A stretch of DNA of 63,754 nt, filler included, from Reclinomonas americana ATCC 50394 (lineage: Eukaryota): the NCBI GenBank assembly GCA_048213135.1. It is 4 parts of one record of this genome, joined end to end, with 100 filler letters (N's around TTAATTAATTAA, not from the genome) between each part and the next. Parts side by side here need not be neighbours in the genome. Positions count along the whole stretch, not along the records: positions 41,993 to 49,001 come from PS015036.1; 3 more parts are not named here. The stretch is one strand, 5' to 3'. Under the pieces are notes generated by a model that was given only the letters and a program-made list of their open reading frames with translations, was not told the origin of the DNA and made no database searches. Made by a program: the position numbers and the translations under genes. Positions 3,988-63,634 of the stretch are shown piece by piece. The stretch's first letter is position 1; each line of letters begins with the position of its first letter.

Positions 3988-3993
3988 GAGAAG

Positions 3994-4024
<31 letters not shown>

Positions 4025-4150
4025 GATGTGAGTGAGGCAACAAGAGGGGCACCGTGCAGAGCCACCGGACCAGCGCTGCATGGGAAGAAACACACAGGTT
4101 CAACTGGACGACTTTGCACGAAAGTGACGTGGCGTTCATTTTGTTTGTCC

Positions 4151-5552: not shown

Positions 5553-5633
5553 CTCTCAGAGGCGACAAGAAATGACAAGTTTTGTCCCGCCCGCGCCACC
5601 GTTACTAGTATACTCTCCTGTCTCCAGCGAGTC

Positions 5634-12213: not shown

Positions 12214-12257
12214 NNNNNNNNNNNNNNNNNNNNNNNNNNNNNNNNNNNNNNNNNNNN

Positions 12258-12269
12258 TTAATTAATTAA
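12258..12269. other. Artificial scaffold linker TTAATTAATTAA inside an N run
   Basis: Palindromic 12-mer with stops in all six frames, flanked by Ns. Identical at three places. Confidence 0.95.
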
Positions 12270-12346
12270 NNNNNNNNNNNNNNNNNNNNNNNNNNNNNNN
12301 NNNNNNNNNNNNNAGAGAGGGAGAGGGAGAGCATGGGGAGAGATAC

Positions 12347-24400: not shown

Positions 24401-27400
24401 CAACGTCCGACAGCGGGAAGGAGTCGTCAAACTTCCATCGCACCACATTATTCGTCGCCGCGTCTCGTGTGGCGTCGTCGGTTCGCACTCGCGACAATAC
24501 TACAAACACACATCCTCGGTCAGTGCAACGGTTGCCAATGAGCAAAAATGTCAAAAACCACTCACGAGACAACGATGCGTCCTCGCTGCATCGACTGGTG
24601 GCATTGAAGGCGAGCAAGGTGTAGCCGTCCTCCGGCGAACCCCACACCGGCGAGTGCACACTTGTGCCAATGGCGGCCACGGATGGCGTGGGAAGTCGCA
24701 GTGGAGCGCCACGCTTGTCGAATGCACGCATAAACACGTGCACGGCGGTCATTGGTCGCCGATTGCAGTCCCACGACACCGACATGGTCTCCAGCGTCGA
24801 CAATCGGGGCGGAGGTGCCGCCGAGGTGACCGCCACGGCGGCCGCTGCGCATGGGAGGAAAGACATACCACGTCAGTCTCCATCATTTCGTCCTGTGTGT
24901 TTCCCTCCGAATTCCAACTCACAAGCCACGGTGAACACCGACGAAAAGCCGTAGATGCTCGTGTCGTTGGCCCAATCGACGCGAATCGAATATCCGGCAC
25001 TCGGCGACAGGTCAAATGGCACTGTCCAGCGGTACGAGTTGCGTCGGCCGCTCTCGACGTCAGTTCCGCACAACGAGCGCACAGTCGCCAACACCACGGG
25101 TGTCACTGGTGTGGCCACCGACGGCGGGTACAGCAAGACACGCGTGATGGAGGTGCTGTTGGAGTTGCAGCGCCACGTAATCTCGGCCAAGCCACCGACA
25201 TAGACCACGGCAGTGGTCTGGACCGTACCGACGGCGTTCGGGTCGTCCGTGGTGTGCGCCTCGGGCGTGTCCAGCGACCGCAGGCCAACATACGACATGA
25301 ATGGAGCTGCGCGCGCGTCAGCGAGTTAGTGTTGTCTGTGCGTGTGTACGACAAAGAATACCAAAGGCAACGTTACCGTGCACGGTGAAATTCTGACTGC
25401 GCGCATACAGGGTGGGCCTGTCGTCGTCGATGATGCTCATCACGTAGTCGTCGCCGGGGACGAGGCGCACGGGCACAATAAACGAGAGTGCACTCGGTTC
25501 CAGCGACGCACAATTGATGGCTTCGGTGCGCGAGCGCACTACCACCTCGGTGGCCGTCGGGGCGAGTACGATGCCACCGCGAGTGCGTGACAAGACGGCG
25601 CGCACCGCCGTGGTGGTCGGGTGGCGGCAGCCGAAAGTCACCGTGCCTGGCGAACCGCCCACCGCGCTCAACGAGGTGCCGCCCATGTTCAGGGCGACTG
25701 GGCCCACCGCCGACTCCACCACCGTAACGGTGGCCTTGGCGTCGTCGCTGCGCACCGACGGCACCGCCGAGTCCGACACACGAACTCGCACCGACACCGA
25801 AATCAGCGTGCGGTCGACTGACGGCACATGCCACACCACCACCGCCACGTTGCCGTTGCACGCAAAGGGCGCGTTCTTGGCAATGTCGATCACAGCGTCG
25901 CTGTTGGTGACGCTTGTCGCCGCGAGACCCGTGACATCCACAAACTGTATGTCGGGATTCGGGTTGCAGAAGAAGCGGAGAGAGACATCGGCGTCGGTGA
26001 AGTAGAGGCTGCCGTCAATGGGCTGCTTCTGACCGCTGAGGAATGTGTGCTGCAGAGTGACGGCTACGGCAACTGCCGGCGCCGAGTTCACGGCGCCGTT
26101 GGTGGCGTCGGAGATCTCCACCGAGAACACGTTGGACAAGGCCTGCGCATACGAGGCCAGCGGATCCCACTGCAGCGCCATCTCGTTCACCGTGGTGTTG
26201 TCGCACGTGGTGGTCATGGTGGTCGGATTCGACACATTGAAGCACTGCTTGCCGGCGCCGGTACCAGTGCACGCAGTAACCGAGGCCGCCGTTGTCACCG
26301 GAACCGAGCAGGTGAAGCGCAACGGGTACGAGTAGCCGTAGTAGACACCGCCGGCAACGGTGAGTGGGCTCGCCACAATCGCAAACGTGGGCACTGCAAG
26401 TGGTGGGGTGAGTGTCCGAAAGAGGGAGAGAAAAGTACTTGGTCGTTGTGTACGCACTGGTGACTTCAAACGCGGGACTGGAGAGCGCCGTGGCCGGCAT
26501 GGCGGCACCAGCAGACACATCAGTGACCTCAATGACAGCAGCAGCTGCGACGGCCGTCGACGGGAGCGCCGGCAACACGACGGTAGCCATCAGCGGAGTG
26601 CGCGAGGCGCTCAAACCACATGTGATGTCACCGAGAGCCGTCGTCACCGTGCCGACGTACACGCCGGGACTGAGAACGACGCGGGCGCGCACTTGCACAA
26701 TCAGCACGTCGTTACAGGCAAAGGAGACCGACAGCGAGTTGTTGACACCCGGCGACACTCGTGCCGCCGGTGTCACACCGCGGAAGGTGGCAACCACCGA
26801 CGTGATCTCACTCCCTGCACAACAGCAGCAATGATAGATGGATGAGTGGCGATTGTGCATCAAGGACACCATACAACACACACCGTGTACATCAATCGTG
26901 CTGGTGCTCACGAACGGCCCGATACGACTCTCGTCGGCGTCCGACACGCGGAGCACCACCGGTCCTGCTCCAATGAGGGAGGCCGGTGGTGTCCAGGCCA
27001 CAGCAGTGGTGCTGACAGAACCGCGTGTCATATTGCAAGCCACGGCGCGGCTGTTGCTGATGGTGTAGAGGCTGGTCGCGGGATTCGCCGCAGTCACCAC
27101 CGCCAGCATGACCTGCCAACAAGAACGAATGAGGACAACGCGGCAGCTGCTGCAGCGCACAGCGATATATGGAACCAACCTGTGCGGTGGAGCCGCCACA
27201 CGAGACGGTGAGGCTTGTGGGAAGGCCGGCCAGCAAGTGGCCGCTCGGATTCGGTGCGACAGAGAGCACCGGAATGGCGACAGTCACAGCGGTCGAGTCG
27301 GCGTACACGGCCGTCGCATTGGCGTCCTCCACCCGGATAATGACGCTGACGGGCCACGTGCTCTGCGCCGTCACCGGTACCGCCACCGACAGCATCGGGT

Positions 27401-33400: not shown

Positions 33401-36400
33401 TCGGCACAGTGGTGATGCGTCGAATCAAATGGGACGAAAAGTCGGCGACAAACAGGTCACCGCTGGTGTTATCAAAGGCGATGCCGTTGGGCAGCGAGAA
33501 ACGAGCCTGCGGCGGGGGATGTGGTGAGCACCGCAAGAGAGAGCGGAAGACGAGACACACACAGACGCAACTGGAGAGCGAGCGGCGCCGTTCGTGTTGC
33601 CAGTGGATCCGGTTCCGGCCCAGCGAACTGCAACAAGAAGGAGGGTGTCAGCGTGAACGTGTGTACATCACGCAACAAGAGGAGCATGTACACCCGCACC
33701 GACAAAGCCTGTGCGATGCAAACAACAATATCAGTACGGGTATGAAGAGTGCAATGAAGACACACGACACACACATACCATCAACGGTCGATGCACGTCG
33801 CACCACAGGTGTTGTGGTGTCACTGTAGTGGGAGGAGGGCGTGTCAGGGGCAATGACAGTGCGTGTCATTGACAAAGGAGAGAGCGAACAGACGCAACGT
33901 GAAAAAGATGCTGGTCGACGAGTCCGCAAACACCACCGAATTCGGTGCATTCAGCGGCACATTTGCGATCGCTCCTTCAGACACCGTAGGAGCCTGCTCA
34001 AGCATGTCAGTGGGTGCGCACACACACAGCGGAGAGAGAGAGAGAGAGTGAATCGCATGCTCGTACCGTGGAGAATCCCACCAGTGTCGTCACAGCATAC
34101 GCTGCACGAGAGTGTCAGCAGAGAACAACATGGAGCACGGGACGATTGGCGGACGAAACGTGCAGTCAACGACACTTGGCGAATGCGCCCGTTGCCGGTG
34201 TCGGCCACCAACACTGCAGTGCTCACTCCAGATCCGTTGCGCAGCAGTGAGAGCGAAGTCGGCGACGAGAATGACGCGGAAGTGCCGTTGCCGTTGGTCG
34301 ACCCGGCCAAACCGGTGCCCGCGAGCGTGGCGACTGCAGTGACGGACGAGAATGGGTGTGAGTGACGAATTACAGGATGCTCACTCGGCGCACGTGACGC
34401 ACCAGTGCTGCCAGTCAATGTCCGCACGGCATGGTTGGCAGTGTCACAAATGTACAATGTTCCACCGGCATCAAAGGCGAGACCGCCGACTGAACCAAAC
34501 GTGGCCGAGGCCGTCTGTTGCAAAGCGAGAGTGGGCATGTTGCCAAACAACAACACTTTGACACACGACACAATCAAAGAAACATATGTCGCGAACCGAG
34601 CCGTTGACAAAGCCGGCAGAAAGGCCGCCGGCCGCCGTGGCCACACCGGTTGCGGCGTTGACGGTGCGCAGACGGAAACCGTCGCCGACCCACAAGACTC
34701 CAGTTGTGGGATGACGCGCCAAGCCGCGTGGACTGACAAAGCGGGCCAGCAGTGGGTTGGCCGAGTCCAGGTAGCCGGGAACGCCCGTGCTGCACCACAC
34801 ATGCGCCGTAAGCACACAAGTAGCGGCATCGAATATCTCTCTCTCTCACACACACACATGTACTCACCCAGCAACGGTCGACACGACACCGGCGGTGGTC
34901 ACGCGGCGAATTGCACCATTACCAGTATCCTGAGCGAAAATGTGAGGGCGGTGAACCGAATTACGAGCTCTCTCCATAAAACCATGCACGAACCGCGACG
35001 AGCAGCGAGCCGTCCGCCTCCAGTGCCACCTGCGTGGGATTGGTGAACTTGCCCGGACTGCCGTCCGCGAAGCCCGACGTGCTACCAGCGTACGTCACCA
35101 CCGACGGAACGACTGTCGACACGACAGAGAGAAAAGGAAGTGAGAACATTGAAAGGTGTCTGTGGAGTACACCAGCACCCACCAATGGTGACTTGCCCGA
35201 CGGCCTGGTACGTGTCCGAGTCGTAGAATCGCGTGCACACAGTGTACGTGGTGCCGAGGGTCACCGACGATGCGTCAATCACCATGCGGACGCTGCTGTT
35301 GGAGTCCAACAGGTACTGTGTCACCGTCAGGCCGGCCTGAGTGGCGGCCAGCGCACAAGTGGTGCCGCGCGACACAACCAGCTGCTGGCCACTGAGCGCC
35401 GCCGACGACAGTTGAAGCAAACTGAGGCCGGCGAGAGTGAGCACTTGGAATGGAGCCGCGCTGATGACGCTCGGCGCCACACTTTGCACCACCGGCACTG
35501 CAGGGCACGAGGTCAGAGTCCACACAACGTGCCATGCACAGGAAAGCAGGGTGTACGAACCTGAGGCGCAGCAGAGCTTCGAGTTGGTGAAGAGCGGGAT
35601 ATTGCGGTACGTCGTCCCCGACTTGTCAAAGTCAATCACCGAGAACGTGGTCACGGTGACGTCGGCCGCTGCGAGAGAATGAAGGAGTGTGGCGTGAGTA
35701 ACACTGGTACTTTTGCAGGCAGGCGCAAGGGCCCACGTACCAACAACGCCAGTCCACGAATACGCAAAGCAAATGTTGCTCGAGGCCAGTGTCATCGGGC
35801 CAATGATGGCTCCATCTGTGCAAGCGCCACTCCAGTTGTACGATGTGGTCGCCGTGGCTGGCGACGTAGAGAACTATATGAGTGATTGTGCGCCGTGAGG
35901 AAAAACCTGACTGGCTCATGACACGCACCTGAGCTTGTCGTGCCAGTGTACACTCCCGGCTCACTGGAGTTGTCGTCGACCACAATATACGGTCCATTGC
36001 CACCATTGGCGGTGAGCGGAAATGAGCCGGTAGTCGAGGTGGCTGTCACCTTGACATTTAGAAAGTTGCCCTGCGCGCACAGAACACGTTTGTGGGCAAG
36101 AGATGCTTCTGGATAGCGGCAGTGACAGTGATGGCAGCAGTGGAACGCACCGTTGTCGGTCCCACCACCGCCGCATAGTTGTTGGCATTGTTGCTGGTGA
36201 TGACGTAGTACGAGATGTACGAATTGGAGCGCTCGTAGCCGGGATAGACGCCGCAACCCGTGTCGTTGATGTGCTGAGTAGCAGTCCGTGTTGGCTCTCG
36301 CAGAGGTCTGATGGGCAGCGAACTGGCCAGGCCCGTGTACGACATGGTGCAGCAGTACATGACGGCGGGCGACAGGTTCGACATGTACACGCAACCGGCC

Positions 36401-40183: not shown

Positions 40184-40806
40184 GNNNNNNNNNNNNNNNN
40201 NNNNNNNNNNNNNNNNNNNNNNNNNNNNNNNNNNNNNNNNNNNNNNNNNNNNNNNNNNNNNNNNNNNNNNNNNNNNNNNNNNNNNNNNNNNNNNNNNNNN
40301 NNNNNNNNNNNNNNNNNNNNNNNNNNNNNNNNNNNNNNNNNNNNNNNNNNNNNNNNNNNNNNNNNNNNNNNNNNNNNNNNNNNNNNNNNNNNNNNNNNNN
40401 NNNNNNNNNNNNNNNNNNNNNNNNNNNNNNNNNNNNNNNNNNNNNNNNNNNNNNNNNNNNNNNNNNNNNNNNNNNNNNNNNNNNNNNNNNNNNNNNNNNN
40501 NNNNNNNNNNNNNNNNNNNNNNNNNNNNNNNNNNNNNNNNNNNNNNNNNNNTGTTTGCGTGTGGTGGTGAGACACGCCCAATATAGAGAAAGTAGACATT
40601 GCTCTCTCTCTCCTCCTCCTCCTCCTTCTCTCTCTCTCTCTCTCATGTGCCCACTGACCACTGGGAGCGGCAAAGTTGTCTTTGAGGCCCTGCAACACCA
40701 CTGTGGTGTAGCAGGCCGACATGGCGGCGTGAGGGAGCACCACCATCGCCAACATCGCCACCACGAGGCATGACACGAGCGCACTGTGTAATGATGACAC
40801 GCGCAT
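21469..40806 (-). CDS. Giant type I membrane adhesion/receptor-like protein (cadherin-like x3, NHL repeats, Ig/TIG-like modules, PA14-like domain, TM, ~800 aa Pro-rich tail)
   Basis: Signal peptide at ATG 40806, then an unbroken series of same-strand Thr/Val/Ser-rich exons. TM LAIGLLVGGLVLLALLVTGLIVVLVI followed by RRRRRRR at ~23870-23945. A single gene is inferred, not proven. Confidence 0.7.
31230..35125 (-). other. NHL-repeat beta-propeller regions within the giant receptor
   Basis: Repeats such as VATLAGTGLAGSTNGNGTSASFSSPTSL, FGSVGGLAFDAGGTLYICDTANHAVR, ARFSLPNGIAFDNTSGDLFVADFSSHLIRRI and YVYVADSGNSRILQV. Confidence 0.85.
36486..37455 (-). other. Three cadherin-like repeats, one per exon
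   Basis: NTPPTSIALS...IGTLSAVDPDVGDSVTFTL...VTVRATDTSG; NTAPTNIQLS...VGLLTATDPGDTLTW...VTVRATDAYG; NVAPSAIYLS...VGQLSAYDANIDD.VFTYSL...ITVTDPTG. Confidence 0.8.
39291..39412. repeat. Intronic direct repeat (~41 bp x2)
   Basis: gaatcgagaccat(c/t)ggattgtagagacacggaaacacgagg at 39291 and 39373. Confidence 0.75.
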
Positions 40807-41826: not shown

Positions 41827-41936
41827 TGAGTTTCCGAACCCACACGAACATGCGCTACGTGCACCTCTTCCTTCTCCTTCTCTCTCTCTCTCNNNNNNNN
41901 NNNNNNNNNNNNNNNNNNNNNNNNNNNNNNNNNNNN

Positions 41937-41948
41937 TTAATTAATTAA
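41937..41948. other. Artificial scaffold linker TTAATTAATTAA
   Basis: Same N-flanked six-frame-stop linker. Confidence 0.95.
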
Positions 41949-42283
41949 NNNNNNNNNNNNNNNNNNNNNNNNNNNNNNNNNNNNNNNNNNNNGAAAGAGA
42001 AGAAGAAGGGAGGAGGCGGTGATGGTGGAGGCAAGCGAGGTGGAGGAGGAGGGGGACGCGAGTGAGTCTTGTGACAGTCGATACTTACTCGTCATTCATG
42101 TTGTCTGATTTCCGCCCTTGCATGCAAGTCGATCTCGCTCGCCACGTGCCTCCGATCCGTCTGGTTCCTCCGACCCGCTGCGTGAGAGTCCGGGGTGAGT
42201 GCTCTTGGCCTCAGTGAGTTGTGCACAGTGATGCTGACCGTGTTCCGCGTTTTTGTATGTATGTCGCTCTCACCATTTTTCAG

Positions 42284-45200
42284 AGATGACGTTCCTGCAG
42301 ATGCGCCAGCCGACCTGACTCTGCACGCGAGCAAGGGGTGAGTGTATGTGGCAGCAGTGACGCACAATGTGCGACCACCCTTCTTCGCTCACCGCCATGT
42401 TGGACGCAGTGCCATCAACTACATGCGTCTCTGCCGAGGACTCGATGCCGTGTCATTCGCCCTGCAAAAACTGGTTGACAGTAGTCTGCCCGAGTTTTGT
42501 GTCGAGCATGATGTGAATGTCACGCACTGGTGGGCCGAGGAGCCTCCTGAGCGGTGCGTTCCCCCACCCCTGTTTTTTCTTGCTGCTGCGGGCTGCTGAT
42601 GTCTGCGAGCTCGTTCTTGCCCCAGCCTGTTCAATATCAACAAGAAGAAGAAGAAGGAGGCACTGTTCCCACTGGTTGTTAAAAAGTACGCCGAGTACAC
42701 CCAGATGATGCGGACTTGGCACGACAGTTTTGTCATCTGGAAGGAGCACCGCGACCCTGCGTGTCGTCCAAGTTCCACTTCATTCGATGTAACCCTCACC
42801 GTCGGCATCCTGTTTGAGTGTGGCGTTAACGACGGCGGCACGGTTATTCGTCTGGTGGAGGATAGAGACGCGGTGAGCGAGTCTGCCAGCAGTTGAGTAC
42901 AGCACTTCTCTCACTCACAATGTGCGGCCGTCAGCGAGGCAATCTCGGAAACATTCGCGACATGCGCAACGACGAAAGCCACAAGGATACTCACATCGCC
43001 ACGGACAGGGAAGTGACCGACCTGCTGGGCGACCTCGACGGGAAGAAACCTGGCCTGTGTATCAGGTGCCTTCGCTCTCTCGACTTGGACGCCGCCACGC
43101 TGGCGGAAGCCGAAACTATGGTCAAAGAAGCGCGCACTGGTACGTCTATGCAGCAGACCGACTTGCCACTGTCACAATACCTGACTGGTTGTGCGCCCTC
43201 ATTTGACTGCAGCTCATATCACATACAACAACTTGGACGAGGAGTTGAAATGGGTGTGCAAGCGCGCACTCGAGGCTGCTTTAAGTATCACCGACGCCAA
43301 GCTTCTGGTGGATCTTCATTGCAAGCCTCACGAACCCAATGGCACCGAGACGTTGCTGCTGGCGGAGGTAAACAACAGATCCATGTGCCGCAGTTTTACT
43401 TTGCTTGAGCTCACCCGACGTCGACGACCCAGTTGACGAATTTCTCTACGAGAGGCCCGCAAGGTCGCGTGCTGTTGCTTCTTGGGCACAGTGGCGCTGG
43501 CAAGACGACGGCGCTCACGCAACTTGCTGGCGCAACGGCCGAGGCGTATCTTAATGCCGCCGACAAAAGGAGCAGATTGCCGCTTCACGTGTCGCTGTCC
43601 TCGATCCACAATCCGCAAGAACAGCTGCTGGAAAAGGTTCTCGAGCAGCTCGTACCGGCTGTGCGTTGGACGGCCGAGTCGAACGCCGAGGCTGTGAACA
43701 CCTTCCGCAGGCGTCCTCTACTCATTATTTTGGACGGGTATGACGAGATCCATTGCCGCGACAACCTCTTCAAGACGAGTGGGGTACGCTGTACTTGTGT
43801 TTGTGTTGAGTACACCTTGCCGACGATGTCAAAATTGTCGTCTTCTTGTCGCAGCTCGCTCTCTGCAACAACGTCAAGGTGATTATTTCCTGCCGCAAGG
43901 ACTATGCAAACGGGCTGGCAGGTGGCAAAGTGCGAGTGCAACTTGCCGACAACAAGCACAGTCGAGAACGCGACTACTCGGCGCACTTTGCCCCGGAGCC
44001 ACTCAGCGGCACTGGAGTGGAACAGAGGCTGGTGGTGCGCCGGATCAGGAAGCTTACCGACGGTCAGCTTGGCGAGATAAAGACCAAGTGGAAGGAGCAA
44101 TGCAGTCCCGATATGGGCGCTGGCTTCGTACTGGTCGATCGCTTGGGTTGTGACGACGACAGACTGCACAAGTTGCTGCGCAATCCGTTCATGCTTCGAG
44201 TGGCGTTGGAGGTGTTGGAGTCGCCGGATGTAGCGGCAACCGCTTTCAGGTCGAAGAGGACGCTGCTGGACAAGTTTCTTCGTAGTTGGTTTGAGCGCCA
44301 CTCCACGACCTGGTCTCGCGATCGTCAGCACTCGGCGCGTGAACCCACTCTGACTGCTTGCCTCTTGTTCTGCGAGGGACTGGCCAAGAGGATGTTCATG
44401 TACGATCGCGTTGTGATTCAGCGTGACGATTCGGCGGCCGCCCAAGAGGACATTGCGGCTGCACTCGACGGTGCTCCGCGCCGGATTGTCGCCAGCCAGG
44501 CACCTCGGCCTGCCAGTCGCGCCGCCAGTGACCGTGACGACGAGTTTGCGGTGTTCTTTGAGCCGCGATTCGAGCACCTGCTGGCATGCTGTCCGATTGC
44601 TCGGCGTGGCAACTCGTGGTCCTTCCACCACTCCCTGTACCGCTTGCACTGTATCGCGCGTCACGTTTTCGTATTCGATGAACGCGCTTGGGGGGACGCA
44701 GAACCGTTGACGGTGGAAGAAGTTCGCAGTCACCTGCTCGGCGTGCGACCGCTGAACGACGAGACGCAGCTGTTGGCGCTTCTGGCGGAGGAGGTGTGCA
44801 CTTCCTCGCGACTGCAGCAGCGGCTGTGGGAGATCATCACGTTGTCCATGTTCGACAACAACGAGCGAACGGTGACGGCGGCGGCCAATGCGGCGACTCT
44901 GCTGTGCTATTCGAGTGTGCCGTTCAGTGGCCGTGACTTGCAAGGCGCTCGGCTGCGTGGCGCCGATTTGCGCGACGCTGTCATGCATCGTACCGATCTT
45001 TCGCGCGCTGATCTGCGCGAGGTGAACCTCTGCCAGGCGTTTTGTCGTGACGCCAATTTCACGGGTAGCAACATGACTGGCACGCGACTCTTGTTGCCGC
45101 TGCGAGCTCGAGGTCAAGATGACGGGAGTATCAATGCACTGTGTTTGGCGTACCCGTATCGAGCCATCATTAGCGGCGGCGACGACGGCACTCTGCGTGT

Positions 45201-47510
45201 GTGGGACGCACAGCACCGCACACTGGTCGAGACCATACGCGATCAGCTTCTCGCAGAGGATGCGAGAGGAGGACGTAGCAGTGCAATTCAAGCTGTTGCT
45301 TTTAAATTTGACGTTGTGCACGGCTGCGACACGATTGCGGTTGGCGTTGCCACAGGCACCGGCAAGAAAAGCAAGAAGTCGCAGCGCTCTCTTGTTTTGC
45401 TGTCACGACCGCACGCTGACGGTGGAGTATGGCAAGAGTCTGCTTACGGTTGGTCACGAGCAGTAGCCGACGTGATTGAACCCGTTTGCTCGGTCGCCAT
45501 CTCTAGTGAAGGGATTGTCGCCACCGGCTTCACCAACAAGATGCGACTGTGGCAGCTGTGTGACGGCGATAGCATACTTCACGAAAACAAGCCTTTTCAA
45601 ACACTAGACACCGACGGAACGGTGAAAACTGTGGCCTTTTTCAACACCACCTCTGGCGACCACGTGCTTGCTGCCGGAATCAGCCGTGGTGCCATCATGC
45701 TTTACAGGTACGACGACGACACTGGTTTGTTCAGCGAAGCTGGTGGCGTTGCAACTGGCCGCGAAGAAGCCCGGGTTTCGGCCTCCGTGAATTGTATTGT
45801 TGTCAAGCCGATGCCGGTGCAGTCAGCTGCAGAAGCAGACGCGGGCATCCTCGCGCAGCTCATCAGTTGTGGTGACGACAGGACTGTCCGACTCTGGAAC
45901 GTGAAGGGCAACGCTGTTGACGGACTGCAGCTGGAGGAGGAGCGGCGCTTTGTTGGCTCTGGTCGACCGTTATTCTCTGTGGCCGTGAGCTCCGACGGCG
46001 AGTACGTTGTCAGCAGCAACGCCTTCAAGACCGTGTACGTGTGGTCGTTGAGCAGCGGAAGATTGGTTCGACAGTTCTATGGCCACCATGGCGCGGTGAA
46101 GGCGGTGGTCACTGACGGCGACGGCCACTCATGTTTCAGTGGTGGCGAAGGCGGAGCGATATTCCAATGGCCTCTTCCGGCGGCTCGTGACAGTGTCAGT
46201 GCGAGTGATACTGTGAGCGCAGAGGAAATGCGGCGTGGCGACAAGTTGGCTCGCGGCAAGTCGAAATGCATGATGTGGCCAGCTGGCGGCCAGCACTTTT
46301 ACTTGGGCGGCTTTGACGGCGTTGTTCGTGAGGTCTGCGTAGCGGATGGTCGACTGCAGCATCAGATTGCACCGCCCACCAAAAGAGGCGAACGGCTCAA
46401 GGCAGTGCACAAGATGCTGTGGGTGCCGACACCAAGTGCCGCCAGTGACGGCCTATTGGTGACGGGTGGTTACGACAGATTTATTCGAGTGTGGGAACTT
46501 GAACGTGGCGCGCCCGACTACCGCCTCGTGCGAACAATGACCGGTCACAGCGACTACGTGATGACGCTGGCAATGGCACACGATGATCGCGGAGCCGGTA
46601 TTATCAGCTGCAGCATCGATGGAACCGTTCGGCGCTGGTCACTGGCTACTGGAGACCAAGAATGGTGCTTCAAAAACCCACGCCCATCGTCCAAGAAGGA
46701 AGGACAACCGGAGGCGTATCACACGTTGGTGGTCGATCCGTACGAAGAGCACGTGATTTGTGCAGACGAGCATGGGTTTGTTGACGTCATTGGGCTGGTT
46801 GACGGGAAAGCGGTCGGCGGATGGCAGGCGTTGGAGGGCGAGATCAAGTCTATTCTCCTGGACGGTGGCCGTGGAAATCGGCGACTGCTGACTGGTGGCG
46901 CAGATTCTGCGATTGGAGTGTGGGAATGGCCATTGCCTGGCAGTGGCGACGCGCCAGCACTGCTGCTCTCACTTCCAGGCTTCACGCAGCGCGTGGTGGC
47001 CATGCATCTGATTCCGGAGGGGGCTGACGATGGCTCTCGATCGCGCTTCCTGGTGTGCGCCAGTGGCTGCGCGGTGCAAGTGTGGTCCATCGAGGACGGT
47101 GTCGCAGATGGCCAGCGACTGCTCTACTCGCTGAATGATGCACACTCGTCCCTGGTGTACGACATTGCGTTGTCGAGCGATGACCGCCACGTTGTCAGCG
47201 TGGGTGCCGACAGTGCCATTCGCGTGTGGGAATTGCCAGCTGACGCTGCGCAGCTGCGGTACGTGTCGACACTACTCTCTGTCTTTGCACCTGCCTTTTC
47301 TCACTGACACCACCGATGTTACACATGTGCAGACACGGCAAGCACGTGCTGCTGCAGAAGACGTTTGGCATGTTCGACTGCTACTTTGCGGGCTGTCGTG
47401 TCGACGGCGTCCGTGGACTCGACGAAGCAACAATGGACTGGTTCCGTCAGACCGCAGCATGCGAGAGTCCCGTAGCCGTGGTGCCAATGTGGAGCTACTC
47501 TTCGCCGTGA
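42284..47510 (+). CDS. NLR-like STAND protein: DZIP3-type HEPN + NACHT + pentapeptide repeats + WD40; 5' end probably truncated
   Basis: Phase-consistent splicing gives INYMRLCRGLD...ALFP...SSTSFDVTL...NIRDMRNDESH, Walker A GHSGAGKT, Walker B LLIILDGYDEI, KVIISCR, LLRNPFMLR, WSFHHSL, AANAATLL, pentapeptides (DLQGARLRGADLRDAVMHRTDLSRADLREVNL), many WD40 repeats and C-terminal VDGVRGLD. Confidence 0.88.
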
Positions 47511-47610
47511 TAAGCAACACCGCTACCAATGAATGCGTTTCTTTTGATGCCAGACATCGCTGCGTCCCGTCTTGTCTTTCCGACTCTTCCATCGTCGTCT
47601 CTTGTCACAC

Positions 47611-47813
47611 ATGTCTCGCCGCGGCCTTATCCTCGCTCTCGACTCGTTCGCCTTTCGCCAGTTCGACGACCCGGCCTACGCCGGCACCAAGCTGCTGAGC
47701 TTCGGGCGCGGTGCGTACCCCGCCGACCCGTCCGAGGGCAAGCGCGCCTTCCTGGCCGAGTGTGCTCGCCACATTGAGGCGCGTGGCGGTCTCGAGGCCT
47801 GCCTGGTGCCAGG
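47611..47813 (+). CDS. DUF3228-family protein, exon 1
   Basis: MSRRGLILALDSFAFRQFDDPAYAGT...LVPG followed by GTGAGT; typical DUF3228 N-terminus. Confidence 0.7.
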
Positions 47814-47850
47814 GTGAGTTGGCCATCTGCACAGGCGTGCACACGACACT

Positions 47851-47921
<71 letters not shown>

Positions 47922-48168
47922 GTCGTACGTCNNNNNNNNNNNNNNNNNNNNNNNNNNNNNNNNNNNNNNNNNNNNNNNNNNNNNNNNNNNNNNNNNNNNN
48001 NNNNNNNNNNNNNNNNNNNNNNNNNNNNNNNNNNNNNNNNNNNNNNNNNNNNNNNNNNNNNNNNNNNNNNNNNNNNNNNNNNNNNNNNNNNNNNNNNNNN
48101 NNNNNNNNNNNNNNNNNNNNNNNNNNNNNNNNNNNNNNNNNNNNNNNNNNNNNNNNNNNNNNNNNNNN

Positions 48169-48318
48169 CTGTCGGAGGCCATGCGCAACGAGTTTCGTCT
48201 CGGCATGGAGGTGCTCAAGTCGGGTGAGAGCGTGCAGGGCGCTACTGAGTTTGCGCACCACGGCAAGGGGCGTGGCGGGCGGCCCATGAACACACCTCCG
48301 CTGATCGCCAAGCTATAA
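48169..48318 (+). CDS. C-terminus of an enoyl-CoA hydratase/crotonase-family protein with PTS1
   Basis: LSEAMRNEFRLGMEVLKSGESVQGATEFAHHGKGRGG...LIAKL*. Matches a crotonase-type C-terminus and ends in AKL. Confidence 0.55.
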   Translation: MSEAMRNEFRLGMEVLKSGESVQGATEFAHHGKGRGGRPMNTPPLIAKL

Positions 48319-48339
48319 GTGTACTGCTCGTGTTTTTTC

Positions 48340-48901
48340 TTACACAATCATCGCGTGCTTCTCCCAGTACGCCACCGACGCGGTGTAGGCCTCGCGATCA
48401 ATCGGCACGCCCGAGCCGCCCTCCTCCTTGCCCAGCGCATTGCGCATGGCCGTGATCGGCGACATTGGCAGCTCACGGTCCTCCGACTGCGCCTTCACAG
48501 ATATCACCGCCCACTCCCACGCCTCGGCGGCCGCCACCAGGTCGCCATCCGCCGCAAACAAGACCACCTCGGGAGCGCCTTGTCCCTGCGACGCGCACTC
48601 GGAGATCATCTGCTCCCGCGAGTACAGAATGAGGTCGAGGAACTCGGCACGCGGCACTTGATCCGCCACAGCCTCACGCGGGAACCAGCGACTCAGCACC
48701 GGCAACTCGCGCGCATTGCGCGCCACATACCCCGATCTGGGTCACATCGGTGAGTGCACATTCTCTCTCTTTGTCACTGGCCTCTTCTCCCCTGTCAAGC
48801 ACCTCAGCAGCGACTGGTTGGCTTCCGTGATCAGCATGTCGCCCACCACAGCATCCGTAAAGTCATTCGGGAGGAACACGTGTTTGCAGAAGGGAGCGTA
48901 T
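48340..48901 (-). CDS. DUF3228-family protein, downstream exons (opposite strand to exon 1)
   Basis: YAPFCKHVF, ELPVLSRWF, LDLILYSREQ, ISVKAQ, ELPMSPITAMRNALGKEEGGSGVPIDREAYTASVAYW. Confidence 0.85.
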
Positions 48902-48919
48902 CTGCATGCGCGTCACAGT

Positions 48920-48998
<79 letters not shown>

Positions 48999-49045
48999 GT
49001 GNNNNNNNNNNNNNNNNNNNNNNNNNNNNNNNNNNNNNNNNNNNN

Positions 49046-49057
49046 TTAATTAATTAA
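49046..49057. other. Artificial scaffold linker TTAATTAATTAA
   Basis: Same N-flanked linker. Confidence 0.95.
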
Positions 49058-49266
49058 NNNNNNNNNNNNNNNNNNNNNNNNNNNNNNNNNNNNNNNNNNN
49101 NCCCCAAATCACCATGCGAGAGAGAGAAAGAGAAAGAGGTGAAGGGGAAGGAGGGAGAAGGAGGGAGAAGGAGAGGGAAGGGAGGGAGGAGAAGGAGAGA
49201 AGAGAGAGGGCAGAGAGTGAATGTGTTGCAGTATTAGACGAGAATGCAGTGTGTGCGTCGTGTGCG

Positions 49267-50487: not shown

Positions 50488-53060
50488 GTACGATGTTGAG
50501 GTGATGATCCCCGGGCGACGGGCCAATGAACGAGCGCGCGCTGTGGTGTGGACCATGCACAGGCGGTATCGGCTGTTTCCGGATAAAGTGCTCGGCGCGG
50601 GAGGTTAGGAAAGTGGGAATGAGCAGAAAGATCATGATTGCAGTGGGGGACGCAGAGTCTCTCAATCTCACTCTCTCTTCTCCTGAGCCACACGTGACGG
50701 ATAGCAGGGGTTGCAGAGAGGCAGAGGCTGATTCTCTTTGCCTTGCCTGGGCCACTTTTGAAGAGAACTAGGCACAGTGAGACTCCTCTCTTGCCTGAGC
50801 AACACGCGATAGACAGCAGGAGGAGTACAGTGAGGAAGTGTCTGCTTCTCTCTCGCTCGTTCTCTCTCTCTCTCTATGTGTGTGTGTGTGTATGTCCCCT
50901 TCTATGCTCTCCTGCCCTCTCTCTCGCGTGAGCCATACGTGAATGGACGCAGGATAGTAGAGTACGGGGGCTTCTCTCCCCCTCACCCAGCTGCACGTGA
51001 GAGAAAGCACGAAAACCCCCGAGGTCTTCCATGAATGGATGCAGGATAGTTCGAGAGTAGTTGAGCACGAGGATTTCCTCATCCCCCTTGTCCAGCTGCG
51101 CCTTTTAGAGGAAGCGCAGAATCTTGCCGCAGCACGTGGCCTCGCTCTCCCCTCTCTTGCCTGAATCACGAGAAAGAGAGCAGACACAGTGAGCGTTTCG
51201 AGAGCATTACACGTTCTGATTGAAGCACGAGTCACTTACACTTGCGTCCCTCGTTTGTTTGCGCAGCGTACGGTGTGGTGGTGTTGCGTCCTCTTCCCCT
51301 CCCTCCACTACATCCGTCTCCCACGTATTCTTATCTCTCTTCTCTCTGTCAGCGGGGGGCTTGACACGCGAGACAATTGTTATGTCGCGGTCAAGCGCAT
51401 GGACATTGGTTCGACATTTGCGCCATTCGTGGTCGCCCGGCGTGCGTATCGCGAGGTGAAGCTGCTGATGCCACTCGACCACCCGAATGTTGCGTAGCCG
51501 AGTCGACAACTCAGCACTTTTAAACGTCGTCTCACTTTCCACGTGCATCGCACACACAGATCATCAAGCTGCGTGACGTGATGAAGATGCCCGACAAGGA
51601 GTCGTGCAACACGGTGTACTTGGTGTTTGAGAAGATGGACACGACACTGACGTGGTTCGTGAGCGCGCCTCATTCTTGGACCTCCTCACCGGTCCCGTCT
51701 GCTCACTCGCTGAGTCGTGCAGGGTCATTCGTTCGCCGCAGCCTCTCAGCACCGAACACATTCGCACGTTCATGTATCAGATTTTGCGAGGATTGCGCTA
51801 CCTCAAATCGCGCTGTGTAATTCATCGCGATATGTTGCGTGCCGATTGCGAACTTTTAGCTCAGTCGTGGTGGTGTTTCGTGCGTGATCAGCAAGCTCCG
51901 TTAGCTCCAACTTGCCTGACCAGAAGACTCGCGGATTCTACGTCTCCTTGTGCTTCATTCTCTCCGCAGCACCTGTGTTCGACTCTCTTTCCCCGGTGCC
52001 TCAGCTGGCTCGACCAGTTAGAATCGTGCATTCTCTGTCTCCGTGTGCTTATGTCTCTCTGCAGCTCCTGTGCTTGACTCTCCTTCCTGGTGCCTCAGCT
52101 GGCTCGACCAGTAAGAATCGTGCATTCTCTGTCTCCTTGCGCTTTAATCTCTCCGCAGCTCCTGTGCTTGACTCTTCTTCCTGGTGCTTCAGTTGGCTTG
52201 CTCGCGCATGCTCTTTCTCTCTGTGTTTCTCTCTGAGGCACCTGTGTCTGATTGTCATCCGTGACTCTTGAGACTCGTGCCAGCTTTGTCTTTGTGCTTG
52301 TTTCCTACCTGCGGCTTCTGTGGTTATTTGTCTTCCCTGGCGCTTCAGTTGTCTCTTCCAACGGAGACTTGTGCATTTTCCCTCTCAGCCCCATCATGTG
52401 CATGTCTTCCTCGGCGGTTGTACATGCTGTGTTCTCTCTTCCCCTCACTTCCCTCCCCCCTCCCTCCCCACTTCCGCCACACAGCAAACCAAGCAACCTC
52501 CTGGTCAACGCCAACTGCGACGTGAAGATTTGCGACTTTGGTCTGGCACGCGGTGCGTGGTACGGCGAGACAGATGCCGTGGCCGAGATGGTCATCAATC
52601 GGACGTACCCCGTGGTCACCATCTGGTACCGCGCGCCCGAGCTGCTGTGCCGTTCTCGCAACTATTCGTACGCCAGTTGCGTCGTATGTTCCACTTGTTT
52701 ACCGGCTGCAAGGCAGAGTGCTAAAATGAGGGATGTGCAGTCGACATGTGGGCCACCGGCTGCATTTTTGCTCAACTCATGCTCCGCGCTCCACTGTTTA
52801 AGGCCGACCGAGGTATTTCGGCGGAGCGAGAAAAGGCAGTCAACGTTATGATGCTGATTGTGTGTTCGTGCAGAGGAGGAGCTGTTCACATCGATGATCT
52901 CTGTGCTCGGGTCGCCATCCAAGCAGGATCTGGAGGAAATGGAGATTCAAGATGTGGATCTGTTCATGCAACAACTCGGTCCACCCGTCGCACCTCGTGA
53001 ACTTGCCGAACTGTTTCCCGGCGCTGATGCTGATGGTGCGCGCCTGCTTCTGCTCGTCGT

Positions 53061-61399: not shown

Positions 61400-63634
61400 T
61401 TACTTGGACTTTTTCCGCCGGCTAAATATGGCCGTCTTATGCATCGATCCGCTTCGGCTGGGCGTAAACGAAGGGCCGTTCGTCTTGCCGCCCCTCTTGT
61501 GCGCTCCGGTCTTCTTTTGCTTCTTGTTCCTCTTGTTCTGGCTTGCGGCAGCCTTCTCCGCAGCCTGCAGCTCCGCCAGGTCGGGGTCAGAGTCGTCGCC
61601 GGCGGCTTCGCTGCCGCTGCCGCTGCTGCTGCCCTTGACTACCTCGGCGGTGGTGTCGTCGAACGGCTCGTCTGCGCCGCCAAAGAGCGCCTCAAAGTCT
61701 TTTTCCGAGATCTTGCGCGACTTGAGCTTGCGCAGCAGGCGAGCGTCGTTGGCAAACTCCTCCGCGTCGCGCGCCATGGCATCGCGTTTCCTCTTGAACC
61801 GTTCGCGACGTGTCAGTGGTGTGGCTGCAGCAGCGGCCGCCTTGGCGGCTGCGGTGGCCTTGGCCTTCTGTCGCACCATTTGCTCTGCGCGTCGCGTCTC
61901 GGCCTCGGCCTCCATCTTGAGCATGCGCGCCCGCCGAGCCTGCTCGCGGCTCTTCTCGCGGTACGGAATGTTTGCCACATCGACGTCCTCCATCGGTGGG
62001 AAGCGATCCATGACCTTGCGCAGCTCCGGCATGCGAGGCAGCTGGATGGTGCGATGAGTGGAAGCGGGAGAGGGAGAGGGGGGTGGGAGGGAGAGACGCA
62101 CCGCTACGAGAGAGAACAAGTGGGCCAGCGCAATGAGATCGAGAGCCTTCAGTCGGAAAATGTAGCTGCACTTGTGCTCCCGGTAGCCGCGCACGTATGA
62201 CACATACGCTTTTTGTGCCTTGTCAAAGAAGTCGCGGTCGGTGGCGGCCTCGCGTCGCACCAGCTCAAAGTACCGTAGCCGGTCGGCGTTGGTCGACAGT
62301 CCCGTCGATTTCGACGACACTCGTGCGCCCTCTTCTTCGTCTTCGTCTTCCTCCTCCTCTCCCTCGGCATCGTCCCTCATCTCCGCATCCTCTCCTTCTT
62401 GTGCTGGCCGAGCCTTGAAGGGAGCCAGAAACTCAAACTGTGTGTCCTCGATGGGAACCTTGCCGAGGCGCAAAAACTCTGCACACTCGCTGGTGAGTGA
62501 AAACGCACGCNNNNNNNNNNNNNNNNNNNNNNNNNNNNNNNGTACACACCGTGTCGTGCAACACGAGCGAACCAATGTATGAATCCTCCGCAGGGGTGAG
62601 AAAGAGGAGGGCACGACCGCGGCGACCCATGCGCGCCGTCCTTCCTATTCTGTGTACCATCATGCTGGGATCCTGCGGCGGATCCACTCTGTGCACACCA
62701 CCGTCGCACAGTGAGAACACCATCGTCGCCCCTTCCACCCCCACGCTCGTCAACGCAACTGAATCACAAAGTCAACGTCGGGAATGTCGAGTCCTCGAGC
62801 CGCCACATCGGTGCACACCAGCACACCGCGCTCCGCCTTGACAAACTGCTCGTACGTTCCGGTGCGGCGCTTCGGCACCATTTGCCCGTGCAGCGAGAAC
62901 ACCTCGGTCCGTTCACCGTCGCCAGCCGCCAGACACACACGCAGCACCGACGCAAAGTAGTCCACGCAAGCGCACGTGAGGAAATACACGATGCACTTGT
63001 CGGCCACATGGTGGCGCAGTGTCGCCACCAGTGCCGCGATCTTGTCCTCCAGTCGGCACACCAGGTACTCGTTGGTCAGCCTGCGAGTGACGAAGAAGAA
63101 TGAGCGAGACCGACTGCGTTGCTCTCTGGAATGGCACGCAACGTCTTGGGGATCTTCGAGTCTTTGGGATGTGAAGAGGCGGGTGCCGCAGCCGTGCTGT
63201 CGGTGGCTCGTGGTTGCACGCGGACAGTGACCTTGACAGGGTTGCGCAGACCGGCGCGAATCAATTCCTGCAAGTCGTCCGTTTGGGTGGCCGAGAACAG
63301 GCCCTGGTGTTCGAGCAGCAGATGGTGTGAGTAGTGTGACACGCGAAACGAGGAATGGGAGAATCAACGAGCGAACCGTGCGTCGTTGTTTTGGCAGCCT
63401 GGTGAGAATCGACGAGATCTGGTCGCGGAAACCCAGCTCAAGCAACCTATCCCAGCCGAAATGTGTCAATACCATCATGCACAAAATCGATCATGCACTC
63501 GGTGAGTGCGCACCGATCGGCCTCGTCGAGAATCAGCAGCTCCACGTGCCGCGTGATCAGTCCACGCTCAATGAGGTCACCAAGACGCCCCGGAGTGCCA
63601 ATCACCACCGCACACGATCGCACTCGGCGAAACT
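61400..63634 (-). CDS. DDX55: DEAD-box RNA helicase DDX55/Spb4; 5' end outside the window
   Basis: [101 protein letters not shown]. Confidence 0.93.

What the first reader, a model, noticed from the sequence alone, without database searches (positions are those of the whole stretch)
42410..47510. HEPN-ribonuclease NLR: DZIP3-type HEPN fused to NACHT-pentapeptide-WD40
Seen: three short exons, invisible as a single ORF, splice in phase to INYMRLCRGLDAVSFALQKLVD...KEALFP...PSSTSFDVTLTVGILFEC...GNLGNIRDMRNDESH. The R-x4-H motif is intact at 42965-42982. The frame continues into a NACHT (GHSGAGKT at 43484), pentapeptide repeats and WD40s. Established: NYxRL / FDxTL / RNxxxH marks the DZIP3-like HEPN domain found on invertebrate NLR-type proteins; RxxxxH HEPNs are dimer-activated RNases; NACHT-pentapeptide-WD40 proteins are known from bacterial endosymbionts, Mortierella and ciliates. 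Inference: a single-chain immune receptor in which WD40 sensing drives NACHT oligomerisation and RNA cleavage (abortive defence). I do not know of this combination being described in a microbial eukaryote.
Basis: partly seen in the sequence, partly recalled or inferred. Interest (0 to 1): 0.9.

Follow-up and report, generated by a model that had tools for sequence, protein, structure and literature searches.

The report
Protist NLR-like gene, possible RNase head
This is a real, intron-split gene of an unidentified single-celled eukaryote that encodes an NLR-type immune-receptor-like protein (NACHT ATPase, pentapeptide repeats, WD40 propellers), whose front end may be an RNA-cutting HEPN domain, though that part is not proven.

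Summary
Exons at 42410-42553, 42626-42872 and 42935-43139 join in phase through GT-AG introns to four further exons. Together they give one open frame that ends at 47510. RNDESH lies at 42965-42982 and GHSGAGKT at 43484. Pfam confirms NACHT, pentapeptide repeats and WD40.

The "DZIP3-type HEPN" label is not supported. No Pfam, PADLOC or NCBIfam model matches the head exons, singly or with exons A and B read through. Exon C has no relative among 1.84 billion representatives.

HEPN at superfamily level stays plausible on weak evidence:
- the RNxxxH motif, which arises in 2.6% of shuffles;
- language-model neighbours of exon C that are mostly HEPN families, all below the 0.9 mark;
- a marginal hhalign match to DUF4145, reached by 6 of 289 shuffles.

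Limits: the spliced head could not be scanned or folded whole. The 5' end is cut by a contig join at 41893-41992, and no cDNA or genome was available.

The kind is known. HEPN-NACHT proteins are described in bivalves and other animals and in bacteria. The NACHT-pentapeptide-WD40 chassis occurs with other heads in bacteria, Linnemannia and Physarum. I rate it a new member of a known kind, of moderate interest.

The parts
41893..41992 (.). Contig-joining spacer (N run, TTAATTAATTAA, N run) that cuts off the 5' end of the gene
   Evidence: The same spacer occurs at 12258 and 49046, so sequence upstream of 41993 need not be adjacent in the genome.
42000..42337 (+). Three candidate upstream exons (42000-42061, 42129-42194, 42284-42337) encoding a low-complexity Gly/Ser/Arg/Pro-rich stretch; no start codon
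   Evidence: GT-AG and in phase. The coding score is clear only for 42284-42337 (LLR 7.7); the other two are ambiguous.
42410..42553 (+). Exon A: first part of the head domain (contains NYMRL)
   Evidence: LLR 5.8, no stops in frame. No family match.
42626..42872 (+). Exon B: middle of the head domain (Lys run, ALFP, SFDVTL)
   Evidence: LLR 27.6. No family or relative found.
42935..43139 (+). Exon C: candidate catalytic part of the head, with IRDMRNDESH (RNDESH at 42965-42982)
   Evidence: LLR 25.3. Atlas neighbours are mostly HEPN families, with scores of 0.81-0.88. hhalign places the motif on the conserved block of DUF4145. No phmmer hit in 1.84e9 proteins.
43213..43367 (+). Exon D: linker between the head and the NACHT module, probably helical (inferred)
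   Evidence: LLR 11.4. No family match.
43433..43783 (+). Exon E: N-terminal half of the NACHT NTPase; Walker A GHSGAGKT at 43484-43507, Walker B LIILDGYDE at 43721-43747
   Evidence: Pfam NACHT 1.3e-10, 41.8 bits, cut-off 26.7. Motifs located.
43855..44913 (+). Start of exon F: rest of the NACHT module and the region expected to hold the STAND helical and winged-helix parts
   Evidence: No Pfam family on its own. It aligns with NACHT-pentapeptide-WD40 relatives: blastp to P0010 covers model residues 323-1361, E 8e-34; alignment A1.
44914..45090 (+). Pentapeptide-repeat segment between the NACHT module and the propellers
   Evidence: Pfam Pentapeptide 7.7e-18, 64.2 bits, cut-off 20.2.
45172..47258 (+). 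WD40 repeats: about 12-14 blade-like units, enough for two propellers (propeller number inferred)
   Evidence: Pfam WD40 1.2e-30, 5 stretches passing on their own. A loose blade-end pattern found 12 matches.
47333..47510 (+). Exon G: 58-residue C-terminal tail and the TGA stop (47508-47510)
   Evidence: LLR 16.1. No family match.

Best explanation
This is a genuine, multi-exon gene of an unsampled protist. It encodes an NLR-like STAND protein. From front to back it has a low-complexity leader whose start is missing, a head of about 200 residues carrying IRDMRNDESH, a NACHT NTPase with intact Walker A and B motifs, a short pentapeptide-repeat segment, about 12-14 WD40 blades and a short tail. 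My preferred reading is that the head is a divergent HEPN-superfamily RNase domain of no assigned family. The proposed mechanism is inferred by analogy and not shown here. The WD40/pentapeptide part holds the protein off until it binds a ligand. NTP-dependent NACHT oligomerisation then brings the heads together. Paired HEPN domains form an RNase site from the Arg/Asn/His residues, and RNA cleavage stops the infected or stressed cell. Shown here: the gene structure, the NACHT, pentapeptide and WD40 domains, and the motif. Inferred: the HEPN fold, RNase activity, the activation route and an immune role.
For: Gene model: nine GT-AG introns of 62-89 nt, one open 4866-nt frame, and the best coding score in the model frame for 7 of 9 pieces. 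Chassis: NACHT 1.3e-10, WD40 1.2e-30, Pentapeptide 7.7e-18, Walker A and B intact. Relatives with the same NACHT-pentapeptide-WD40 order carry recognised heads in the same position: TIR_2 in Physarum P0044 and ARM_5 in Linnemannia P0010, and source names or precomputed Pfam entries point to TIR, nucleoside phosphorylase and phosphoesterase heads. Head: RNDESH has the polar Asn after Arg that PMC3710099 describes for active HEPN domains (passages), and RNx3H arises in only 2.6% of shuffles. For exon C the ESM Atlas lists Csm6-type HEPN (PF09670, PF09659), Ymh, HEPN_Apea and DUF4145 clusters, and 8 of the ten best hits with a family share a family or clan with the top one. hhalign of the joined head against a 30-sequence DUF4145 alignment scores 18.6, puts Asn on Asn and His on His of the family's conserved block, and is reached by 6 of 289 shuffles. 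Only 2 of 12 HepT singles and 0 of 7 Cas02710 singles score higher against that alignment.
Against: No profile library recognises the head. Pfam, PADLOC and NCBIfam give nothing that fits for exons A-D (two chance-level NCBIfam rows to unrelated families). Pfam also gives nothing for the A+B read-through at E<=10. There were no phmmer hits for exon C in 1.84e9 proteins, no word-search hits for exon B and no PDB hits. The Atlas scores are 0.81-0.88, below the 0.9 mark, with 146 of 256 shared features where 170 is usual for same-family hits; exon B gave no usable hit. The hhalign signal appeared in 1 of 3 HEPN families tried (Cas02710 12.0, HepT 14.4, shuffle mean 11.9), so it is about 0.06 after correction. 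The test also has little power, since true HEPN cross-family singles have medians of 12-14.5. The looser motif R[NDH]x3-5H arises in 24% of shuffles. Single-exon AlphaFold models were low-confidence (pLDDT 64 and 56), and the exon C model left the motif in coil. There are no relatives to test conservation of Arg and His, no cDNA, and the start of the gene is missing.
Confidence: 0.5

Rival explanations
1. The chassis is as described, but the head is not a HEPN RNase. It is some other lineage-specific helical domain (an adaptor, an oligomerisation module or an unrecognised effector), and RNDESH is a chance motif.
For: No family model or relative supports HEPN at a significant level. Rx4-6H arises in 84% and R[NDH]x3-5H in 24% of shuffles. 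The Atlas hits are below the mark the tool sets for more than a lead. The hhalign result is marginal and seen in one of three families. Relatives on the same chassis carry non-nuclease heads such as ARM_5.
Against: The stricter RNx3H form arises in 2.6% of shuffles. The Atlas neighbours agree on one superfamily and are not scattered. hhalign places the motif in register with the conserved block of a HEPN family.
Confidence: 0.35
2. The head is specifically a member of the DZIP3/hRUL138-like HEPN family (PF18738), but has diverged beyond the Pfam model.
For: That family is the HEPN type known to sit N-terminal to NACHT in animals and is expanded in the unicellular Capsaspora (PMC3710099 Table 1; PMC9646362 passages).
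Against: PF18738 (144 positions, cut-off 27 bits) gives no hit at E<=10 to exon A, B or C, or to the 154-residue A+B read-through. By my recollection, ALFP and SFDVTL are spaced much more widely here than in typical members. No reference members could be obtained: 0 of 401 cyanobacterial genomes and 0 of 14 control genomes were over the cut-off.
Confidence: 0.15
3. The gene model is wrong or the locus is a pseudogene. The upstream exons might not be spliced to the NACHT exons, or the gene might not be expressed.
For: No cDNA or read evidence could be obtained. The 5' end and start codon are missing. The two most upstream exon pieces have ambiguous coding scores.
Against: Nine consecutive canonical GT-AG introns of uniform size keep a 4866-nt frame open. 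Exons A-E and G each score best in the model frame, with no stops. The NACHT domain itself is split between exons E and F by such an intron, so splicing of this type is needed for the recognised domain too.
Confidence: 0.07

Closest known systems
Invertebrate NACHT proteins with an N-terminal DZIP3/hRUL138-like HEPN domain (pearl oyster, oyster, Nematostella; PMC9646362, PMC3710099)
   Same: A candidate Rx4H (Arg-Asn...His) helical head sits N-terminal to a NACHT NTPase, with C-terminal repeats. The oyster paper reports heads of this type on more than 50 NACHT proteins, and NACHT proteins with LRR, TPR or WD40 tails (passages).
   Different: The head here does not match PF18738. A pentapeptide segment lies between the NACHT module and the WD40 repeats. 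The host is a protist with short introns, not an animal. The NACHT-to-WD40 part is closest to bacterial, Linnemannia and Physarum proteins; animal proteins were not among the hits.
NACHT-pentapeptide-WD40 proteins of bacteria, Linnemannia hyalina (P0010) and Physarum polycephalum (P0044)
   Same: The same order of NACHT, pentapeptide repeats and WD40 propellers, alignable over most of the length at 19-24% identity (A1; blastp E 8e-34 to P0010). The N-terminal heads vary.
   Different: Their heads are TIR (P0044, and source names for P0014, P0015, P0058), ARM-like (P0010), nucleoside phosphorylase (P0016) or phosphoesterase (P0042). None of the stored hits aligns with the head here.
Bacterial NLR-related NACHT proteins (bNACHT; Kibby et al., bioRxiv 10.1101/2022.07.19.500537)
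   Same: A NACHT hub with swappable N-terminal effectors and C-terminal repeat sensors, including beta-propellers and pentapeptide repeats. HEPN is among the domains listed in that survey's abbreviation list (passages). The paper infers several transfers of NACHT genes from bacteria to eukaryotes.
   Different: Those are intron-less bacterial antiphage genes with shown function. This gene has nine introns, no shown function and no close bacterial relative (at most 29% identity).
HEPN RNases that act as dimers (RNase L, Csm6, Cas13; recalled, apart from the general HEPN features read in PMC3710099)
   Same: An Rx4-6H motif with a polar residue after Arg. The proposed activation by induced proximity is modelled on these enzymes.
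   Different: There is no detectable sequence relation beyond the motif region. The fold and the activity are untested here.

Membership tests
NACHT NTPase (PF05729, STAND class) | Profile match above the curated cut-off | tested here: met
   Exon E alone scores 41.8 bits against a cut-off of 26.7, E 1.3e-10, covering profile positions 1-96 of 167.
NACHT NTPase (PF05729, STAND class) | Walker A GxxxxGK[ST], and Walker B followed by the D-[GAS]-h-D-E signature (signature recalled from Koonin and Aravind 2000) | tested here: met
   GHSGAGKT at 43484-43507 and LIILDGYDE at 43721-43747.
NACHT NTPase (PF05729, STAND class) | C-terminal helical and winged-helix extension of STAND NTPases | tested here: inconclusive
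   No Pfam family in 43855-44901. The region does align with NACHT-pentapeptide-WD40 relatives, with invariant columns.
Pentapeptide repeat (PF00805) | Profile match above the cut-off | tested here: met
   64.2 bits against a cut-off of 20.2, E 7.7e-18, at about 44914-45090.
WD40 repeat (PF00400) | Profile match above the cut-off, with several repeats | tested here: met
   105 bits against a cut-off of 27, with 5 stretches passing on their own. A loose pattern found 12 blade-end matches.
HEPN superfamily | Rx4-6H motif with a polar residue (N, D or H) after Arg (PMC3710099) | tested here: met
   RNDESH at 42965-42982. Weak on its own: RNx3H arises in 2.6% and R[NDH]x3-5H in 24% of shuffles.
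HEPN superfamily | Four-helix up-down bundle with the motif at the end of helix 3 (PMC3710099) | not testable with these tools
   The spliced head cannot be handed to the folding tools. Single-exon models had pLDDT 64 and 56 and show nothing either way.
HEPN superfamily | Significant profile or sequence similarity to a recognised HEPN family | tested here: inconclusive
   Pfam, PADLOC and NCBIfam give none. The Atlas neighbours of exon C are mostly HEPN families, at 0.81-0.88. hhalign against DUF4145 scores 18.6, reached by 6 of 289 shuffles; two other families gave no signal, and the test has low power.
HEPN superfamily | Second conserved acidic residue in helix 2, often as Ex3[KR] (PMC3710099) | tested here: inconclusive
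   The only Ex3R I saw upstream is EPPER, at the end of exon A (translation printed). Its two prolines make a helix unlikely, and without an alignment no equivalent position can be named.
HEPN_DZIP3 (PF18738) | Profile match at or above 27 bits (144 positions) | tested here: not met
   No match at E<=10 for exons A, B or C alone, nor for the 154-residue A+B read-through. Caveat: the whole spliced domain could not be scanned as one piece, and HMMER's filters drop most matches above about E 0.1.
   The strings NYMRL, SFDVTL and RNDESH are present in that order. No reference members or logo could be obtained to check the signature or its spacing.

The most novel reading that the evidence does not exclude
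The head is the founder of an unrecognised, highly divergent HEPN family, and this is an oligomerisation-triggered RNase NLR in a deep-branching, unsampled protist lineage. That would mean the HEPN-on-NACHT design of animal and bacterial immune receptors was assembled independently on the bacterial-type NACHT-pentapeptide-WD40 chassis in a free-living eukaryote, perhaps against giant viruses or other intracellular parasites.
Probability: 0.3. Interest if true: 0.55.

Novelty: new member of a known kind. Interest (0 to 1): 0.35.

Why it matters
NLR-like STAND receptors with swappable heads are a shared design of bacterial, fungal, plant and animal immunity, but protists are poorly charted. If the head is a working RNase, this gene would be a protist example of a suicide or antiviral RNase coupled to a NACHT switch. 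It would be built on a chassis otherwise seen with TIR, phosphorylase or ARM heads, and it would add a data point on how often such receptors were assembled or transferred. The design itself is already described in animals and bacteria, the catalytic claim is unproven, and the organism is unknown, so the value is incremental.

Tried and rejected
Whole genome: none is held for this window, so paralogues could not be counted. tblastn of the model against the window found only the gene itself.

Expression: the look-up of sequencing runs listed no run and no RNA holder. An exact 40-mer from exon C had 0 matches in metagenome contigs.

Relatives of the head:
- word search with exon B, longer proteins, E<=10: 23 candidates, none scored;
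- phmmer of exon C against 1.84e9 representatives: 0 hits;
- PDB phmmer of exons B and C at E<=10: 0 hits;
- Atlas with exon B: no usable hit.

Family libraries on single exons: Pfam, PADLOC and NCBIfam gave nothing relevant. The only rows were chance-level matches to unrelated families: CLIP (E 0.16, in intron-derived residues), Msp porin (0.13) and TIGR00269 (0.057). The Pfam read-through of exons A and B with X at the intron's stop gave 0 families.

Folding: complex prediction on the exon A, B and C products as three chains returned "no answer" (score 0.30, mark 0.34), which I count neither for nor against. AlphaFold on exon C and exon B alone gave pLDDT 64 and 56, too low for fold searches, which I therefore did not run.

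Reference DZIP3-type HEPN members: the paper's supplement that is held as text has no occurrence of the three search terms DZIP3, Capsaspora or hRUL138. PF18738 was over its cut-off in 0 of 401 cyanobacterial genomes and 0 of 14 control genomes.

hhalign against Cas02710 (7 sequences) and HepT (27 sequences) gave scores of 12.0 and 14.4, no better than the shuffle mean measured against DUF4145.

Organism: Rfam and tRNA scans of the window found nothing. The neighbouring DUF3228 gene has best hits of at most 62% identity spread over unrelated protists and algae, so the lineage stays unidentified. An animal origin looks unlikely: introns are 62-89 nt and the next gene starts 100 nt downstream.

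I used P0004 instead, only to obtain genome handles.

Earlier notes of this scan: none on this genome and none on the same architecture.

Literature: searches for HEPN with DZIP3, HEPN/NACHT/WD40/pentapeptide and HEPN/NACHT/protist terms found no paper describing this exact combination in a protist. This covers only the held library. bioRxiv supplements and the figures and alignments of PMC3710099 could not be seen and may list such architectures.

Full report
**What is in the sequence.** Reading 42000-48000 and joining exons by coordinates in a script gives ten exons:
- 42000-42061, 42129-42194 and 42284-42337 (upstream, low-complexity);
- 42410-42553 (A), 42626-42872 (B), 42935-43139 (C), 43213-43367 (D), 43433-43783 (E), 43855-47258 (F) and 47333-47510 (G).

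All nine introns begin with GT, end with AG and are 62-89 nt long. The joined frame is open for 4866 nt and ends at a TGA at 47508-47510. With a codon table trained on exon F, the model frame has the highest log-likelihood and no stops in 7 of 9 other pieces. The two exceptions are the two most upstream, low-complexity pieces. The NACHT domain is itself split by the E/F intron, so the splicing rule needed for the head exons is the one needed for the recognised domain.

**Limits of the locus.** The window is several assembly pieces glued by an N-run/TTAATTAATTAA/N-run spacer at 12258, 41937 and 49046. The gene therefore sits on the piece 41993-49001, and its 5' end runs into the join. There is no in-frame ATG before the NYMRL stretch, so the true start is missing. 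Nothing upstream of 41993 can be taken as its neighbour. No whole genome is held and no sequencing run was listed. An exact 40-mer from exon C is absent from the metagenome collection. The junctions thus rest on sequence logic alone, and paralogues could not be counted. The window holds no second copy.

**The chassis.**
- Pfam finds NACHT on exon E (1.3e-10; 41.8 bits against a cut-off of 26.7) and WD40 on exon F (1.2e-30, five stretches).
- Pfam finds pentapeptide repeats at about 44914-45090 (7.7e-18).
- Walker A (GHSGAGKT) and Walker B with the acidic signature (LIILDGYDE) are intact.
- A loose pattern finds 12 blade-end matches between 45172 and 47240, enough for two propellers (the propeller number is inferred).

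A search of 5.8 billion proteins with exon F found 92 proteins at E<=0.001 among the 8000 candidates scored. None exceeded 29% identity over more than about a tenth of the query; higher identities covered only 4-9% of it, almost all on pentapeptide-repeat proteins. The hits that share the NACHT-pentapeptide-WD40 order are bacterial proteins that the sources name TIR, nucleoside phosphorylase or phosphodiesterase fusions, plus Linnemannia hyalina P0010 and Physarum P0044.
- blastp of the model aligns residues 323-1361 with P0010 at E 8e-34.
- A 13-sequence alignment shows 19-24% identity to the query, with the P-loop, Walker B and pentapeptide blocks conserved.
- Pfam puts ARM_5 at the front of P0010 and TIR_2 at the front of P0044.

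The chassis is therefore a known, widely shared one whose N-terminal slot takes different heads.

**The head: tests of the DZIP3/HEPN claim.** None of exons A-D matches any model that fits the head in Pfam (E<=1 and E<=10), PADLOC or NCBIfam; the only rows were chance-level matches to unrelated families. Exons A and B share a frame, so I read them through the 72-nt intron with X at its single stop. The 154-residue product also gave 0 Pfam families at E<=10. PF18738 has 144 positions and a 27-bit cut-off, and a typical member should have registered on these pieces. I therefore do not file the head under that family. The caveats are that the spliced domain could not be scanned whole and that HMMER's filters drop most matches above about E 0.1.

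Other searches also found nothing:
- exon C has no phmmer hit at E<=0.001 among 1.84 billion representatives;
- exon B has no word-search hit;
- neither has a PDB hit.

I could not obtain reference DZIP3-type sequences. The held supplement of the HEPN paper has no occurrence of the three search terms. The family is over its cut-off in 0 of 401 cyanobacterial genomes and 0 of 14 control genomes.

**What speaks for a HEPN-superfamily head.** There are three weak lines.
1. The motif. PMC3710099 (passages) defines the active site as Rx4-6H with a polar residue, mostly N, D or H, after Arg, lying at the end of helix 3. RNDESH fits. By shuffling the 258-residue head, Rx4-6H arises in 84% of shuffles, R[NDH]x3-5H in 24% and RNx3H in 2.6%. 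Only the strict form is mildly unusual.
2. The ESM Atlas features of exon C. The nearest clusters are Csm6-type HEPN (PF09670 at 0.88 and 0.87; PF09659 at 0.86), then Ymh, HEPN_Apea and DUF4145. Eight of the ten best hits with a family share a family or clan with the top one. All scores are below 0.9 and the feature overlap is 146 of 256, which the tool calls a lead only. Exon B gave nothing.
3. hhalign in the Python box. I built alignments of three HEPN families from loci returned by the genome search: DUF4145 (30 sequences), Cas02710 (7) and HepT (27). The joined head scores 18.6 against DUF4145, with IRDMRNDESH laid on the family's conserved block, Asn on Asn and His on His. Six of 289 shuffles reach that score. 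The other two families give 12.0 and 14.4, no better than the shuffle mean of 11.9. As a power check, genuine HEPN singles against other HEPN families have medians of only 12-14.5. Only 2 of 12 HepT singles and 0 of 7 Cas02710 singles beat 18.6 against DUF4145. The test is weak, and the head does at least as well as most true members.

The folding attempts added nothing. The three-chain complex job returned no answer, and the single-exon AlphaFold models had pLDDT 64 and 56.

**Most likely working.** The position of the head, upstream of a NACHT module with intact nucleotide-binding motifs and a long repeat sensor, is the effector slot of NLR-like proteins. By analogy with bacterial NACHT proteins (Kibby et al., passages) and with HEPN RNases that work as dimers (recalled), I propose four steps. 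The repeats keep the protein off until a ligand binds. The NACHT module oligomerises with NTP. The heads are brought together. If they are HEPN domains, they form an RNase site that cuts RNA and arrests the cell. Only the domain layout and the motifs are shown here; every step of the mechanism is inferred. I put the HEPN-effector reading at about 0.5, a non-HEPN head at about 0.35, and a wrong gene model or pseudogene at about 0.07. Within the HEPN reading, true DZIP3 membership is at about 0.15 overall.

**Comparison with what is known.**
- Table 1 of PMC3710099 lists the DZIP3/hRUL138 HEPN family as fused to TPR, RING, ankyrin, CARD, NACHT, DEATH and LRR in animals, with expansions in Nematostella, the oyster and the unicellular Capsaspora.
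- PMC9646362 reports more than 50 pearl-oyster NACHT proteins with that head. It also reports NACHT proteins with TPR or WD40 tails, and Rx4H with Asn after Arg as the commonest motif.
- PMC8195603 describes HEPN heads with WD40 propellers in oyster death-domain proteins.
- HEPN is among the domains listed in the bacterial NACHT survey.

A HEPN-type head on a NACHT-repeat protein is therefore a described design. Three things are new here: the host (an unsampled protist), the chassis (the bacterial/Linnemannia/Physarum type with a pentapeptide segment) and a head with no detectable relatives. Three literature searches found no paper describing this exact combination in a protist. That statement covers only the held library, and I could not see figures, alignments or bioRxiv supplements.

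**Organism.** Rfam and tRNA scans found nothing. The neighbouring DUF3228 gene has best hits of at most 62% identity. These are scattered over a dinoflagellate, a haptophyte, Klebsormidium, Acanthamoeba, an apicomplexan and Naegleria. The short introns and the 100-nt gap to the next gene point to a compact protist genome, but the lineage is not identified.

**Verdict.** I class it as a new member of a known kind, with interest 0.35.

Noticed in passing
window 12214-12313, 41893-41992, 49002-49101: Three identical spacers (44 N, TTAATTAATTAA, 44 N) join separate assembly pieces. The 12-mer is its own reverse complement and reads as a stop in all six frames. Gene neighbourhoods across these points are therefore not evidence of linkage.
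   Followed up: partly
window 47611-47814 (+) and 48343-48741 (-): A DUF3228 gene appears in two pieces on opposite strands either side of the N gap at 47932-48168. The plus-strand exon matches profile positions 1-21 (E 0.023) and the minus-strand ORF matches positions 78-194 (1.5e-47). This suggests a wrongly oriented contig at the gap, or two convergent copies. The plus-strand start lies only 100 nt after the NLR gene's stop.
   Followed up: partly
window 47830-47925, 48955-49000, about 40550-40700: Long (CA)n/(GT)n microsatellites flank several assembly gaps and probably caused them.
   Followed up: no
window 43585-45402 (-): A 605-codon open frame runs antisense to exon F. It is most likely a by-product of the GC-rich codon usage of the sense gene, and I did not test it further.
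   Followed up: no
window 1271-2282 (-), 3310-5555 (-), 17198-18081 (-), 24876-25325 (-), 33954-34898 (-), 51631-52848 (+), 61400-63490 (-): Other gene fragments on the other assembly pieces, by Pfam: ATP-dependent DNA ligase, pectinacetylesterase, two saposin B domains, a Kre9/KNH-like domain, NHL repeats, a protein kinase, and an SPB4-like DEAD-box helicase. All appear to be split by short introns.
   Followed up: no
window 21469-24426 (-): A 985-codon open frame lies in the most GC-rich part of the window (66% GC) and has no Pfam match. It contains an N gap at 24146-24333.
   Followed up: no
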